Below are positions 16,423 through 63,566 of a stretch of DNA of 64,000 nucleotides, piece by piece. Position numbers and translations under genes: made by a program. The first letter of the stretch is position 1, and each line of letters opens with the position of its first letter. Origin of the DNA: Enterobacteria phage RB18; sequence record NC_054906.1. The stretch is one strand, 5' to 3'. The notes under the pieces are model-generated. The model did no database searches, had not been told where the DNA came from, and worked only from the letters and a program-made list of their open reading frames with translations.

Positions 16423-16623
16423 ATGATACAAAAATTAATGGCACTTGTTAATGCCATAAAAGGTAATAAGAAACGTATAGCTTTTACTATTTCTGCTATG
16501 GTAGGAATTTTACTCTGGAACTTTATTTTATCACCTGTTGCAATTGCACATGGTATTAATATTCCAGTAGTTACTCTTGATACATTCGTAGATTTAGCAT
16601 TTGCTTTAGTTGGGTTAATTTAA
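16423..16623 (+). CDS. candidate plus-strand small hydrophobic membrane protein
   Basis: 66-aa ORF in the 268-bp gap between 61 and 56; AAGGAGG SD 3-4 nt before the ATG; two predicted hydrophobic segments. Confidence 0.3.
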   Translation: MIQKLMALVNAIKGNKKRIAFTISAMVGILLWNFILSPVAIAHGINIPVVTLDTFVDLAFALVGLI

Positions 16624-17648
16624 ATCTTAGCATATTTAGATAACCGCATTTTAGCCATCAACCCCTGGGCAATATTATTTTTCATATATTCCATAATTTG
16701 TTCAGGGGTTGCACCTTCCTTTCTAATCATATCATTAACATCTTTTGATTTCCAGGGAGATTTATCCCAAAACATAACCCTTTCTCCTGCATCAACTAAT
16801 TTAGTCATTCGCTTAATAGTGTCAGGATGACGAGGTTCATTATCTAAAACCCACACACGTCTATCTTTAAATGGAACAACTTCTAGGTCTAATTGACCAC
16901 CCGTAATAGCTATACCATTTTCAATAAAAAGTGAATCTATAGGTCCTTCTAGAACATATACATCACCATCTTTAACTCGTTCGACTCCATAGATTTTTGT
17001 TGCTTCAGGATAAGCTTTGATGGTGATATATTTTTGGGGAGCATCTTTCTTTAATGCACGTCCTTGAAAAGACTCAGCTTTTCCATTAGCATTATAAATT
17101 GGAATAACAAGACGAGGCTCAGGTATTTCCTTTTTATATGTTCCCGGTGCTATGCTATTAACTAATTTAGGCCATTCAGTTGTAAACCAAAGATATTTCC
17201 ATTTATCCTTTGGAATACAACGAGCTTTTACATATTTTATAATTGCATGGTCTTCCGCCAGTTTATCTAATCGAACACATGACGGAAGAGATTTAATTAT
17301 TTTCTTCTCAGGTTGTTTAGGAAGTTCTTTAGGTTTTTCTACTGGACGACTTTTACCTTTTTCTTTTCTTATTTCAAAGATATACTCACGATATAAATCA
17401 GGTTCAAACTCCTTTAAATATATTCCGATTGGTGCATGATAGTTACAGTTATAACAATGAATATTTCCTTCATTATTATCACCATAATACCATCCACGAG
17501 CTTTATTCTGGTCGGTTTTTGAATCTCCACAAACAGGACATCTAAACCGTAATTTAAAAGTTGAACTATTATTTACTTGTGTGAATTTAGGTAAATGAGC
17601 TAATGCACGGTATGCAAACTCATTATCAATCCAAGGTATTGATGACAT
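16620..17648 (-). CDS. 61: DNA primase gp61 (zinc ribbon + TOPRIM)
   Basis: 342 aa as in T4; CPVCGDS...CYNC zinc ribbon. Confidence 0.9.
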   Translation of the reverse strand: MSSIPWIDNEFAYRALAHLPKFTQVNNSSTFKLRFRCPVCGDSKTDQNKARGWYYGDNNEGNIHCYNCNYHAPIGIYLKEFEPDLYREYIFEIRKEKGKSRPVEKPKELPKQPEKKIIKSLPSCVRLDKLAEDHAIIKYVKARCIPKDKWKYLWFTTEWPKLVNSIAPGTYKKEIPEPRLVIPIYNANGKAESFQGRALKKDAPQKYITIKAYPEATKIYGVERVKDGDVYVLEGPIDSLFIENGIAITGGQLDLEVVPFKDRRVWVLDNEPRHPDTIKRMTKLVDAGERVMFWDKSPWKSKDVNDMIRKEGATPEQIMEYMKNNIAQGLMAKMRLSKYAKI

Positions 17649-17650
17649 TT

Positions 17651-17815
17651 TTACTCTTCTTTTTCTTTAGATTCCTCTTTTTTCTTTTTAGGAATCTGTT
17701 CAGGGCCTTTATTTACTACAGCGCCTGACGTTGTTCCAGTAGAGATATTTTCAGGATTACCACCTGAATCTCCAGCGACCATATCTTCTTTGATAAATTC
17801 TTTATATGTTTTCAT
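17651..17815 (-). CDS. small protein with capsid-targeting-sequence-like N-terminus (54 aa), absent from the ORF track
   Basis: MKTYKEFIKEDMVAGDSGG... resembles the T4 internal-protein CTS MKTYQEFIAE; fills the gap between flanking genes exactly. Confidence 0.4.
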   Translation of the reverse strand: MKTYKEFIKEDMVAGDSGGNPENISTGTTSGAVVNKGPEQIPKKKKEESKEKEE

Positions 17816-17816
17816 A

Positions 17817-18173
17817 TTAACCTCTATTCATAAAAGCATTAAAAATTTGGTCATCAATAGATGGAATAGCAACCTTTTCGGCATCATTTAGCAAATCATT
17901 AATTTCATCAGATAGCATAACACATGTGCCTTTATTTCCTGTAATTGTTACTGCGCAATTACGAACGTTTTCTTTATCAAATTTTAGGTTAATATTTTCG
18001 TAGTGAAAATCCTTTAATGCCGAATATATCTTTAAAATGAAATTGTCTTTTACTACAATAAACCCAACTTCACTATTAAAACGTGGTTCATGGAAACTGT
18101 AATAAACCTTTTCATCTATGAAATCGTATGAAATTTTTTCCATTTTTAAATATGAAAATTCAGAACTATACAT
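17817..18173 (-). CDS. hypothetical protein sharing a C-terminal tail with the next gene
   Basis: 118 aa ending SIDDQIFNAFMNRG; 3' end lies inside a 45-nt direct repeat. Confidence 0.5.
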   Translation of the reverse strand: MYSSEFSYLKMEKISYDFIDEKVYYSFHEPRFNSEVGFIVVKDNFILKIYSALKDFHYENINLKFDKENVRNCAVTITGNKGTCVMLSDEINDLLNDAEKVAIPSIDDQIFNAFMNRG

Positions 18174-18174
18174 A

Positions 18175-18801
18175 TTAATCTCTATTCATAAAAGCATTAA
18201 AAATTTGGTCATCAATAGAAACATTTACTTTAGACTGTTTTTCAGATGGCAATTCATATCCACATATTACAATTTTATGATCAATATCAAAATACACAGA
18301 AGCAATATGATTAATGATATTTTCAGTGAAGTCTAAATCGACATCAATATCTTTTTGACCACAGCCCAAAGGATAAATAATGCGAGTAATTCGATTATCT
18401 TTAACAAATATTCCACCGACATACTCTGTACTGCGTTTAAAGTCTACACGCCGACGAAATGAAAAATATTCAGGCTCTTTATGAGCTCGGCTCATAGGAC
18501 ACAACGAATAACTAGAATAAGAGATGTCAAATCCTACGCCTTCGATATGAGCCAAAGTGTCATGATTAAACCAATTATAATCGTACGCCAAATCCATTAG
18601 ATTATAATATGTAAAAGGCACCGGATTAACATCATTAGTCACAAGCATGTAATTAGCAACTGCTATAATTTCATTGTTTTTAACGAATACAAACCGTGAT
18701 TGATGCGAATGACCTGGACCCGCGTTTTCACGATTAATGATATAACACTGGGCACCTTTATATTTGTATGTATCTTTGCACTTGTGCATTTGATAGAGCA
18801 T
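18175..18801 (-). CDS. hypothetical protein
   Basis: 208 aa ending SIDDQIFNAFMNRD; 3' end lies inside the same 45-nt direct repeat. Confidence 0.5.
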   Translation of the reverse strand: MLYQMHKCKDTYKYKGAQCYIINRENAGPGHSHQSRFVFVKNNEIIAVANYMLVTNDVNPVPFTYYNLMDLAYDYNWFNHDTLAHIEGVGFDISYSSYSLCPMSRAHKEPEYFSFRRRVDFKRSTEYVGGIFVKDNRITRIIYPLGCGQKDIDVDLDFTENIINHIASVYFDIDHKIVICGYELPSEKQSKVNVSIDDQIFNAFMNRD

Positions 18802-61010: not shown

Positions 61011-61391
61011 TCAATTAGAAAATAAATTTATCCAAGATTGTTCTTTAATTAAAAATGGCTCAGAATCATATGCCATTAAACTCTGTGTGATTAGTCCTTT
61101 AAAAGGTCCATCAATAAATTCCATGGTAAAATATGGAATTTTATTCATTAACTGTGCGTTAGGAGCAGTGCACAAAACTCTGCATCCTTTGAATACGCCT
61201 TTTTGTAATTTGTATTGCTTGGGATAAAATTCGCTTAAAATGTTGTTATTTGCCAAAATTTCAAAATGATTCACCAATTTATTTTTAATAGTTTTTGGCG
61301 AAAAATAAAGATATTCGAAAAGCTGTGTGTCTGTCATCATTGCATTCCGATTACGAAAAACTGTGGACGAGTAATACCACCAATACAACAT
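61011..61391 (-). CDS. hypothetical protein
   Basis: 126-aa ORF. Confidence 0.45.
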
Positions 61392-61876
61392 TTACTATTA
61401 CAGCAGTAGTGTACAGTCTCAATATGGACACTATAAATCTTATCCATATCAGGAGATTTGACAGGCTCATCAATTATATACAAAATTCGCGAAAGCGATA
61501 AACCTCTGAACTTGCTTCCTTTATTACCAATAAAACTGCGCACAGAATCAGTAAATAAACGAAAACGTATATCATCATTAGAATAACGCGAAAATTCCTT
61601 TTTAATGTTATTTGCAGAAATTTTAGCGTAAGCTGAAGTATTAGAAAGAACGATAACTGTTCCGCCATCATACAACCAATTAGCAGCAAAGTTAGTCACA
61701 GCAATTGATTTACCGGATTGACGTCCACCATCTAGTCGAAGTGTGCAATACTGTTTAAGTAATTCTTCAAATGGCGGGATATATTCGTTTTTACAAATTT
61801 CTTCTACTCTAGCATCAGAATGGTGTGTAAAAGCATTCATCAGGGATAGATAAGGACCAGTTAAAAATGTTCTCAT
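61337..61876 (-). CDS. P-loop NTPase of unknown function
   Basis: 179 aa from the internal ATG; Walker A GGRQSGKS, Walker B-like ILYIIDEP. Confidence 0.5.
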   Translation of the reverse strand: MRTFLTGPYLSLMNAFTHHSDARVEEICKNEYIPPFEELLKQYCTLRLDGGRQSGKSIAVTNFAANWLYDGGTVIVLSNTSAYAKISANNIKKEFSRYSNDDIRFRLFTDSVRSFIGNKGSKFRGLSLSRILYIIDEPVKSPDMDKIYSVHIETVHYCCNSKCCIGGITRPQFFVIGMQ

Positions 61877-62029
61877 TTTATTCTCTCTAGGTTTGGGCCA
61901 TTCCGTGGCGCATGAATTGTCCATTTCTGTATTTACCCATTACCGCACTTGGGCTCGACCTTATTACAGGTTGGCGGGAATCCCTCACAGAATCATGAGG
62001 TCCAGGTTGTTCCCATATTTCTTATTTGC

Positions 62030-62503
62030 TTATTTGAACGATTTAACGTACTGAATAGAACCTTTACTATTCACAAAGGCAATTTTACCATTTTTGTTAT
62101 ACATGGTAGCAGTACGTTGATAGCCATAAGTTTGTTTACCAGATTGATAACCAACTAATGCAAAATTATCTTCACCCATTTTATTCTGTTTAGCGCGAAT
62201 ACGTTCATGACCATGTGCCATAAGAACCTTAGCATCACCTGTTGCAATGGATCGACGAGTTTTTTCATCTTCAACTGTATTAACAAAGTCGTCAAATGAA
62301 TCAAATTTAGCATGAGATTTATTATACAGTTTTCCATCTACTGCATAATTATATCCCTGTACATCCATCTCAACTTCTGTACCATCATCCAGTACAGCAG
62401 TGATTTTCTGTCCTTTTTTAAATTTCAAAAGATCAGTAAAAGATTCAGCAATAATTTGAGAATTAATAGCTGCTTCAGTAATAAATTCTTGATATGTTTT
62501 CAT
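62030..62503 (-). CDS. internal (capsid-packaged) protein with CTS N-terminus
   Basis: 157 aa beginning MKTYQEFITEA, the T4 capsid targeting sequence; located upstream of e like ipIII. Confidence 0.6.
   Translation of the reverse strand: MKTYQEFITEAAINSQIIAESFTDLLKFKKGQKITAVLDDGTEVEMDVQGYNYAVDGKLYNKSHAKFDSFDDFVNTVEDEKTRRSIATGDAKVLMAHGHERIRAKQNKMGEDNFALVGYQSGKQTYGYQRTATMYNKNGKIAFVNSKGSIQYVKSFK

Positions 62504-62597: not shown

Positions 62598-63566
<969 letters not shown>

What the first reader, a model, noticed from the sequence alone, without database searches (positions are those of the whole stretch)
17651..17815. Small ORF with a capsid-targeting-sequence-like N-terminus next to primase
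The 54-aa ORF begins MKTYKEFIKE, closely resembling the T4 internal-protein CTS (MKTYQEFIAE), which directs packaging into proheads and is removed by the prohead protease. It may be a new capsid-injected protein, a class that includes anti-restriction factors.
Basis: partly seen in the sequence, partly recalled or inferred. Interest (0 to 1): 0.5.

Follow-up and report, generated by a model that had tools for sequence, protein, structure and literature searches.

The report
Mini-copy of capsid protein's cleavage site
This 54-residue phage T4-type gene (61.1) is a free-standing copy of the piece of the major capsid protein that is cut during head maturation, fitted with a head-targeting leader, so it is probably a small, overlooked head-assembly component rather than a replication protein.

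Summary
The ORF is real: minus strand, 17651-17815, 54 aa. It is gene 61.1 of a Tequatrovirus, conserved in more than 1,400 phage records and always just upstream of the primase gene.

The leader MKTYKEFIKE matches the T4 IPII/IPIII capsid-targeting sequence (CTS) at 8 of 10 positions. That includes all four experimentally important ones: residues 4 and 7 for targeting, 8 and 10 for processing. T4's own gp61.1 shares its first seven residues with IPI.

Residues 1-41 are homologous, ungapped and in register, to gp23 residues 56-96, which span the gp21 cleavage site (Glu65|Ala66) and the N-fist that starts mature gp23*. Support: hhalign 98.4% probability, and gp23 chains are the only PDB hits. 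All 53 family representatives keep Glu at this boundary, and 48 have a hydrophobic P3, matching the gp21 I/L-x-E rule.

Most likely gp61.1 joins the prohead core and gp21 cuts it after Glu10, leaving a 44-residue N-fist-like, lysine-tailed peptide.

Caveats:
- The CTS-like leader occurs in only about half of the short-form lineages.
- Long forms carry an unrelated N-domain.
- The gene is early, with no late promoter.
- The protein was not detected in a T4 proteome.
- Nothing supports an anti-restriction role.

The parts
17651..17815 (-). Gene 61.1 coding sequence (54 codons plus TAA stop)
   Evidence: ORF list and sequence; phrog_1823 E=7e-34; annotated 61.1 in T4; 161/165 nt identical to T4 61.1.
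17786..17815 (-). Codons 1-10, MKTYKEFIKE: CTS-like leader ending in the predicted gp21 site I-K-E|D
   Evidence: 8/10 identical to the T4 IPII/IPIII CTS, with Y4, F7, I8 and E10 all kept. In register with gp23 F-L-T-E65|A66.
17693..17785 (-). Codons 11-41, DMVAGDSGGNPENISTGTTSGAVVNKGPEQI: module homologous to the N-terminus of mature gp23* (N-fist, residues 66-91, and the start of the N-arm)
   Evidence: BLASTP 36 bits, E=6e-9, 16/37 identical, ungapped. hhalign 98.4%, E=1e-14, reversed control 0.6%. PDB profile search hits only gp23 chains, E=1.2e-5. The module is the conserved core of the family.
17654..17692 (-). Codons 42-54, PKKKKEESKEKEE: lysine-rich tail
   Evidence: A run of K/R follows the module in essentially all family members. 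The acidic end is not conserved, e.g. the T6-type variant P0002.
17821..17824 (-). Shine-Dalgarno GAGG, 5 nt before the ATG. The TAA of the upstream 118-aa ORF (17817-17819) lies in the spacer
   Evidence: Read directly from the sequence.
16620..17648 (-). Gene 61 (primase), starting 2 nt after the 61.1 stop, so probably translationally coupled. This neighbour is conserved in every lineage sampled
   Evidence: Synteny in RB49, KP15, Aeromonas SW69-9 and CC2, Acinetobacter DP45, Vibrio VH7D and a metagenomic contig.
62030..62503 (-). Comparison feature in the same window: a bona fide internal virion protein gene with CTS MKTYQEFITE|A, downstream of lysozyme e and two late promoters (63106, 63119)
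   Evidence: phrog_3155 E=6e-102; DNA pattern match; late promoters.

Best explanation
Gene 61.1 encodes a small, intrinsically disordered protein with three parts. The first is a 10-residue capsid-targeting leader. The second is a copy of the gp23 segment that spans the maturation cleavage site and the first ~30 residues of mature gp23* (the N-fist). The third is a lysine-rich tail. In the prohead, that gp23 segment points inward and is thought to contact the gp22 scaffolding core. I propose that gp61.1 is recruited to the core by the leader and/or the gp23-like segment. I further propose that the prohead protease gp21 cuts it after Glu10 (I-K-E|D), exactly as it cuts gp23 after Glu65. This would release a 44-residue peptide beginning DMVAGD. 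Shown here: the gene is real and conserved, the leader matches the CTS at all functionally mapped positions, the homology to gp23 56-96 is significant and in register, and the phi-x-Glu boundary is conserved family-wide. Inferred: actual recruitment, actual cleavage, and the fate of the peptide. The peptide might stay with the DNA and be injected, dock on the shell like an N-fist, or simply compete with gp23 for the core.
For: CTS match and its determinants. The 10-residue IPIII CTS alone suffices to package foreign proteins (PMC9026906; PMC3012670). Homology to gp23 56-96 in register with Glu65|Ala66. It is specific to gp23, with no match to gp22, gp67, gp68, gp21, gp24 or the IPs. It is ancient and protein-level: 52% nt identity, and only 6 of 17 identical residues share the third base. 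Family-wide boundary: Glu in 53/53, L/I/M/F/V at P3 in 48/53 against 39% background, median product 45 aa. This holds in long forms too, where the module follows a folded N-domain. The gp21 I/L-x-E rule: PMC12991175. gp23 residues 66-105 face the prohead interior, probably touch the core, and carry head-length mutations A66D, A94V and G97S (PMC9546572). Non-detection by proteomics is expected on my reading of the sequence: after cleavage at Glu10 the main peptide is semi-tryptic, leaving only GPEQIPK as a fully tryptic peptide of useful length.
Against: 61.1 RNA is classed as early and the protein was not detected in the T4 time course. There is no TATAAATA late promoter on the minus strand between 61.1 and gene 41, whereas the IP gene has two nearby. 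The gene lies on the early dmd-to-61 transcript. The CTS-like leader is present in only 11/23 short-form lineages and is absent from long forms. Loosely similar N-termini also occur in UvsW.1, which is not a known head protein. No head-proteome or cryo-EM report of gp61.1 was found. The RB49 co-variation test was inconclusive.
Confidence: 0.5

Rival explanations
1. Cytoplasmic mimic or decoy. gp61.1 is made early and acts outside the head as a soluble mimic of the gp23 cleavage region. It could act as a competing substrate or buffer for free gp21 protease. Alternatively it could be a decoy for a host sensor that recognises gp23 or gp21 activity. This would fit its position at the edge of the dmd-tifA-adfA anti-toxin island.
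For: Early transcription and no late promoter. The neighbours dmd, tifA (61.4) and adfA (61.2) are all anti-defence genes, and the authors suggested that other genes in the region are candidates. Host CBASS enzymes sense gp21 through I/L-x-E-containing loops. A disordered peptide with a canonical gp21 site is what a competitive substrate would look like.
Against: Anti-defence genes are usually patchy and variable. This gene is present at the same position in every Straboviridae genus sampled, even where dmd, tifA and adfA are absent from the locus. A decoy for gp21 would not need the 30-residue N-fist similarity or a lysine tail. No PADLOC or defence-related evidence was obtained.
Confidence: 0.15
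2. Replication-linked small protein. gp61.1 works with the helicase-primase pair, for example as a DNA-binding accessory through its lysine tail, or mainly as an upstream ORF that couples primase translation. Under this view the gp23 resemblance reflects a shared partner or convergence.
For: Invariant position between genes 41 and 61 in all lineages, a 2-nt gap to the primase ATG, and early expression. A basic tail is present in all members.
Against: It does not explain the significant in-register homology to the gp23 cleavage site and N-fist, the near-perfect CTS, or the universally conserved phi-x-Glu boundary. The long-form N-domain shows no similarity to gp41, gp61 or any solved structure. 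In RB49 and KP15, other small ORFs separate it from gene 61, so coupling is not conserved. Gene order in T4-like core regions is conserved in general, so synteny is weak evidence.
Confidence: 0.15
3. Injected internal protein with an anti-restriction or other host-directed function. The processed peptide would stay in the head with the DNA and act in the next host cell.
For: CTS-like leader and gp21 site. The lysine tail could ride on DNA, and lysines of internal proteins contact DNA phosphates.
Against: IPs are hypervariable and lineage-specific. gp61.1 is conserved and its core is nearly invariant. The mature part resembles a capsid-lattice element, not an inhibitor fold, and is predicted to be disordered. 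There is no late promoter.
Confidence: 0.12
4. A chance ORF or a decaying fragment of gene 23 with no function.
For: It is very small, and the protein was not seen in one proteome.
Against: It is conserved at the protein level in 1,431 phage records and 50 clusters at 50% identity, across genera infecting Escherichia, Klebsiella, Acinetobacter, Aeromonas and Vibrio. It has a good RBS, and its nucleotides are diverged while its residues are conserved.
Confidence: 0.02

Closest known systems
T4 internal proteins IPI, IPII, IPIII (and Alt): CTS-bearing prohead core proteins
   Same: N-terminal leader MKT(Y/F)(Q/K)EF. Hydrophobic-x-Glu gp21 site at residues 8-10, as in IPII and IPIII. Small basic product. 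In the same window, a true IP gene starts with a near-identical 23-nt sequence.
   Different: IPs are hypervariable, lineage-specific, lie near late promoters and are abundant in heads. gp61.1 is conserved across Straboviridae at a fixed locus in an early operon, is only 54 aa, and its mature part is homologous to gp23. In many relatives the leader is replaced by a folded ~90-aa domain. Packaging and cleavage are unproven.
Major capsid protein gp23, residues 56-96 (end of the propeptide, the Glu65|Ala66 site, the N-fist 66-91 and the start of the N-arm)
   Same: Ungapped homology: E|xx(V/I)xGDxGxxxxxIAxGxxSGxxxxxGP. The hydrophobic-x-Glu sits at the same position, and the segment is disordered when not in an expanded lattice.
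   Different: gp61.1 has none of the HK97-fold domains and cannot be a shell subunit. Database names such as 'major capsid protein' for this family are misnomers. It ends in a lysine run where gp23 continues into the N-arm.
Vertex protein gp24 N-terminal propeptide (MAKINELLRE|S)
   Same: A 10-residue leader removed by gp21, with hydrophobic residues at P4 and P3 and Glu at P1.
   Different: gp24 is a full capsid-fold paralog of gp23 and has no N-fist. gp61.1 is the reverse: an N-fist-like piece without the fold.
phrog_2086 long-form relatives (KP15 gp24-locus protein, Acinetobacter, Vibrio and Aeromonas phages)
   Same: The same module, Glu boundary, lysine tail and position upstream of primase.
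   Different: They are 130-165 aa with a conserved helical N-domain of unknown fold (pLDDT 89-98, no PDB match) in place of the 10-residue leader.

Membership tests
CTS-bearing T4 prohead core / internal proteins | N-terminal 10-19-residue propeptide resembling MKTYQEFIAE | tested here: met
   MKTYKEFIKE is 8/10 identical to T4 IPII/IPIII. T4 gp61.1 MKTFKEF is 7/7 identical to IPI. Only 61.1 and a true IP match the strict motif among 196 window ORFs.
CTS-bearing T4 prohead core / internal proteins | Targeting determinants at CTS residues 4 and 7 | tested here: met
   Y4 and F7 are identical to IPIII. The determinants are taken from the mutagenesis summarised in PMC9026906.
CTS-bearing T4 prohead core / internal proteins | gp21 processing site I/L-x-E at the end of the propeptide (residues 8 and 10) | tested here: met
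   I8-K9-E10|D11. The boundary is conserved in 53/53 family representatives, with hydrophobic P3 in 48/53. The rule is from PMC12991175.
CTS-bearing T4 prohead core / internal proteins | Physically incorporated into proheads and present (processed) in heads | not testable with these tools
   No report was found. The protein was not detected in a whole-infection proteome.
CTS-bearing T4 prohead core / internal proteins | Cleaved by gp21 in vivo | not testable with these tools
   Inferred only from the motif and its register with the gp23 site.
CTS-bearing T4 prohead core / internal proteins | Expressed when proheads assemble (late promoter or persistence from early synthesis) | tested here: inconclusive
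   No TATAAATA upstream and RNA classed early. IP RNAs are also classed early in that study, and protein persistence is unknown.
CTS-bearing T4 prohead core / internal proteins | Variable, lineage-specific mature domain (arms-race cargo) | tested here: not met
   The mature part is the most conserved part of the family across genera.
Major capsid protein gp23 family (PF07068, HK97 fold) | HK97-fold A and P domains, E-loop and insertion domain | tested here: not met
   The protein has 54 aa, and only gp23 residues 56-96 are matched. There is no Pfam hit.
Major capsid protein gp23 family (PF07068, HK97 fold) | N-terminal maturation site followed by the N-fist motif | tested here: met
   hhalign 98.4% over 42 columns, with E10 aligned to E65. 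The only PDB hits are gp23 chains.
gp61.1 family (phrog_1823; long forms phrog_2086) | Sequence membership and position upstream of primase | tested here: met
   phrog_1823 E=7e-34 and phrog_2086 E=2.6e-16. Synteny.

The most novel reading that the evidence does not exclude
gp61.1 is a trans-acting N-fist and the evolutionary link between gp23 and the CTS. Under this reading, an ancient duplication of the gp23 core-binding and cleavage segment gave a free peptide that enters the prohead and is trimmed by gp21. It then either supplies N-fist contacts where the lattice has none (next to gp24 pentamers or the portal), or tunes gp23-gp22 contacts that set head length. Its 10-residue leader would then be the ancestor of the capsid-targeting sequence that T-even phages later attached to their injected internal proteins.
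Probability: 0.15. Interest if true: 0.8.

Novelty: new variant of a known kind. Interest (0 to 1): 0.55.

Why it matters
T4 head assembly is among the best-studied assembly pathways, yet this conserved 54-residue gene has no assigned function. If it is a gp21 substrate in the prohead, the parts list of the T4 core is incomplete.

It would also give a natural, minimal probe for two things. One is how the capsid-targeting sequence recognises the core. The other is what the inward-facing gp23 N-terminus, where head-length mutations map, binds. The in-register similarity of the IP CTS, the gp61.1 leader and the end of the gp23 propeptide suggests where the CTS came from. The CTS is widely used to load foreign proteins into T4 heads.

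Practically, the family is misnamed 'major capsid protein' in many records, and that should be corrected.

Tried and rejected
1. Literature searches for gp61.1 or gene 61.1 found no functional study. The T4 genome review is not held.
2. Pfam and NCBIfam give no hit for the 54-aa protein.
3. The exhaustive profile search of 1.84 billion representatives found 50 family clusters but no gp23-length protein at E<=1e-3. The gp23 link needs pairwise, profile-profile or PDB-scale searches.
4. I tested whether RB49 dc1, which overlaps the 61.1 start, is the split-off N-domain of the long forms. It is not: it belongs to a different PHROG.
5. The long-form N-domain was predicted with AlphaFold2 with good confidence. 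It has no significant match in the PDB, and BFVD gives only uncharacterised phage proteins. It shows no similarity to the gp23 propeptide, gp22, gp67, gp68, gp21, gp20, gp24, gp40, gp41 or gp61, and it is absent from this window.
6. The last homolog search, aimed at fusion architectures, showed only 144-180-aa proteins.
7. Co-variation test in RB49. About 68 kb was scanned for proteins sharing the RB49 gp61.1 leader (MIGFKQFVEE). Only gp24 and UvsW.1 were found, so the test was inconclusive. The rest of the genome was not fetched.
8. A strict P7/P4 count across the family failed, because the spacing between the N-terminal motif and the Glu varies. It was replaced by an N-terminal motif count.
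10. Recent gene conversion between 61.1 and gene 23 is rejected: 52% nt identity.
11. No Rfam family matches, and no terminator lies between dmd and gene 61 on the minus strand of the region scanned. The 41-aa plus-strand ORF at 17603-17728 is antisense to conserved coding sequence and was not pursued.

Full report
**What is there.** The finding's coordinates hold a 54-codon ORF on the minus strand: ATG at 17815-17813 and TAA at 17653-17651. A GAGG ribosome-binding site lies 5 nt upstream. The stop codon is 2 nt from the start of the 342-aa primase gene 61.

The window is the left ~64 kb of a Tequatrovirus genome, 99.3% identical to phages slur02 and slur04 over this locus. The minus-strand gene order is uvsX, 40, 41, dmd, 61.4 (tifA), sp, 61.2 (adfA), an extra 118-aa ORF, this ORF, and 61. 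The ORF is T4 gene 61.1 ('hypothetical', 'uncharacterized 5.9 kDa protein'). Its DNA is 161/165 identical to T4 61.1. It belongs to phrog_1823 (E=7e-34), and tblastn finds it in 1,431 phage records.

I took the T4 sequences from the reference genome rather than from memory. IPII and IPIII begin MKTYQEFIAE|A. IPI begins MKTFKEFTSTTTPVSTITE|A. T4 gp61.1 begins MKTFKEFIKE|D, and the window protein begins MKTYKEFIKE|D.

The window leader is 8/10 identical to the IPII/IPIII CTS, and T4 gp61.1 shares its first seven residues with IPI. According to the mutagenesis summarised in PMC9026906, capsid targeting depends mainly on CTS residues 4 and 7, and processing depends on residues 8 and 10. All four are identical here (Y4, F7, I8, E10).

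The match is not chance. A degenerate DNA pattern for the leader finds two sites in the window against 0.01 expected. The second site is the start of a genuine internal-protein gene at 62030-62503 (phrog_3155). The two starts differ by one base in 23. A strict N-terminal motif selects only these two of 196 window ORFs.

Several GenBank and UniRef records call this tiny protein 'major capsid (domain-containing) protein'. The reason is a real similarity. Residues 2-38 align without gaps to T4 gp23 residues 57-93 (BLASTP 36 bits, E=6e-9, 16/37 identical).

The register is the important point. I-K-E10|D11 of gp61.1 lies on F-L-T-E65|A66 of gp23, the bond cut by the prohead protease gp21 to make gp23* (PMC9958956). 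What follows in gp61.1 (DMVAGDSGGNPENISTGTTSGAVVNKGP) corresponds to the first ~30 residues of gp23* (AEIGGDHGYNATNIAAGQTSGAVTQIGP). That is the 'N-fist' (residues 66-91; PMC7136217) and the start of the N-arm.

Three checks support this homology:
- A profile of 51 family members against a profile of seven gp23 N-termini from different genera gives hhalign probability 98.4%, E=1e-14, over 42 columns in the same register. The reversed-sequence control gives 0.6%.
- A family profile searched against all 177,635 distinct PDB sequences returns only T4 gp23 chains, with a best E of 1.2e-5.
- The match is specific to gp23 among head proteins and is old. Nucleotide identity is 52%, and only 6 of the 17 identical residues share the third codon base. 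It is therefore maintained at the protein level, not by recent gene conversion.

**The family.** An exhaustive profile search found 50 clusters at 50% identity. Together with loci fetched from RB49, KP15, Aeromonas SW69-9 and CC2, Acinetobacter DP45, Vibrio VH7D and a metagenomic contig, the gene is always directly upstream of primase.

There are two architectures. Short forms are 50-99 aa. Long forms are 112-184 aa (phrog_2086) and carry a conserved helical N-domain. AlphaFold2 gives pLDDT 89-98 for its residues ~10-70, while the module itself scores ~54, consistent with disorder. The N-domain has no significant match to any solved structure, to the gp23 propeptide, or to the head or replication proteins tested.

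What all members share is the module, a lysine/arginine run after it, and a Glu immediately before it. Glu is present in 53/53 representatives, and L/I/M/F/V is at P3 in 48/53, against 39% expected given a Glu. The predicted C-terminal product has a median length of 45 residues. This is the gp21 specificity I/L-x-E (PMC12991175).

The CTS-like N-terminus is less widely conserved. A loose aromatic-x-x-(F/Y/L)-hydrophobic motif within the first residues occurs in 11/23 short-form lineages, against 2/26 long forms and 15/196 window ORFs. In some lineages the MK(T/S)F start is kept although the leader is 20-40 residues long, as in IPI.

**Mechanism.** Fang et al. 2022 (PMC9546572) report several relevant points:
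- In the unexpanded head, gp23 residues 66-105 are disordered and point inward.
- Head-length mutations A66D, A94V and G97S map there.
- After expansion the segment moves outside and forms the N-arm and N-fist, which bind neighbouring subunits and Soc.

The most economical reading is that gp61.1 is a free-standing copy of the core-contacting, protease-cut segment of gp23. In T-even-type phages it is equipped with a bona fide CTS. It would enter the prohead core and be cut by gp21 after Glu10. I put this at about 0.5.

The fate of the 44-residue product is open. It might stay on the DNA through its lysine tail and be injected. It might dock on the shell as a surrogate N-fist. It might act only before cleavage, by competing with gp23 for the core.

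A possible reason it has been overlooked is my own inference from the sequence. After cleavage the main peptide has a non-tryptic N-terminus, which leaves only GPEQIPK as a fully tryptic peptide of useful length.

**Evidence against, and rivals.** In a T4 time course, 61.1 RNA is classed early and the protein was not detected. The IPs, however, are also 'early RNA, late protein' in that study. There is no TATAAATA late promoter on the minus strand between 61.1 and gene 41, whereas two lie just upstream of e and the IP gene. The gene sits on the early transcript that starts at the dmd promoter, with no terminator before primase.

Loosely CTS-like N-termini also occur in UvsW.1 of T4 and RB49, which is not a known head protein. 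A co-variation test in RB49 was inconclusive.

The rivals I keep are:
- An early cytoplasmic mimic or decoy of the gp23 cleavage region, suggested by the neighbouring anti-toxin island and by host sensors of gp21 (0.15).
- A replication-linked role or translational coupling to primase (0.15).
The strong conservation of the mature part argues against this one.

**Comparison and novelty.** In its leader and cleavage site, gp61.1 resembles the T4 internal proteins. It fails their pattern of variable cargo and late expression, and its packaging is untested, so I do not file it as an IP. It is not a capsid protein either, because none of the HK97 fold is present.

I found no functional study of gene 61.1. 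The gp23 similarity survives only as automated, misleading product names. I rate it a new variant of a known kind, namely CTS- and gp21-processed head components.

The more novel possibility is that it is a trans-acting N-fist and the evolutionary bridge between the gp23 propeptide and the CTS. I put this at about 0.15.

Noticed in passing
window 17813-17861 and 18171-18219; ORF 17817-18173 (-): A 49-nt direct repeat (98% identical, 358 nt apart) brackets an extra 118-aa ORF that is a paralog of the C-terminal half of AdfA (gp61.2). Each repeat holds the last codons of an AdfA-type ORF, the RBS and the next ATG. T4 lacks the ORF, and recombination between the repeats would give exactly the T4 arrangement.
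   Followed up: partly
window 62030-62503 (-), with late promoters at 63106 and 63119 (-): An internal virion protein gene of family phrog_3155 (157 aa, CTS MKTYQEFITE) occupies the place next to lysozyme e where T4 has ipIII and ipII. This is an example of the polymorphic IP locus.
   Followed up: partly
L013 (T4 uvsW 3' end) and L010:10833-11069 (RB49 uvsW.1): UvsW.1 begins MLLEFKQFLYE|AS in T4 and MISFKRFLVE|AA in RB49. This is an aromatic-x-x-F-hydrophobic-x-Glu N-terminus like a CTS, in a protein not known to be in the head.
   Followed up: no
proteins P0040, P0054, P0058; BFVD hits A0A411BBR2 and A0A1B1IT15: Some family members are 149-251 aa. After the lysine tail comes a second CTS-like start (M.E...FKQFVE.LE) and a ~100-aa domain, possibly a fused neighbouring gene. 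Structural hits of 387-913 aa contain the long-form N-domain. These architectures are unresolved.
   Followed up: no
database records for gp61.1 and its long forms: Many GenBank and UniRef entries name these 50-165-aa proteins 'major capsid protein' or 'major capsid domain-containing protein', and one names it 'methyltransferase'. The capsid names are misnomers caused by the ~40-residue similarity to the gp23 N-terminus.
   Followed up: yes
protein P0002 (T6-type gp61.1, 62 aa): In T6-type phages the C-terminus differs (...KKKKRNLKKKKSKNVINTLD), apparently through a frameshift. The acidic end of the T4-type tail is therefore dispensable, while the lysine run is kept.
   Followed up: no
window 61337-61924 (-): A 195-aa ORF downstream of the IP gene belongs to phrog_1488 (unknown function). 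It has a weak match to the ATPase part of large terminases (phrog_2, E=1.3e-5).
   Followed up: no
literature: PMC9546572: The expanded T4 head map shows unassigned helical densities beneath the gp24* P domains. The authors suggest these may be the cleaved gp24 propeptide or part of another digested core protein. They are worth re-examining with gp61.1 in mind.
   Followed up: no
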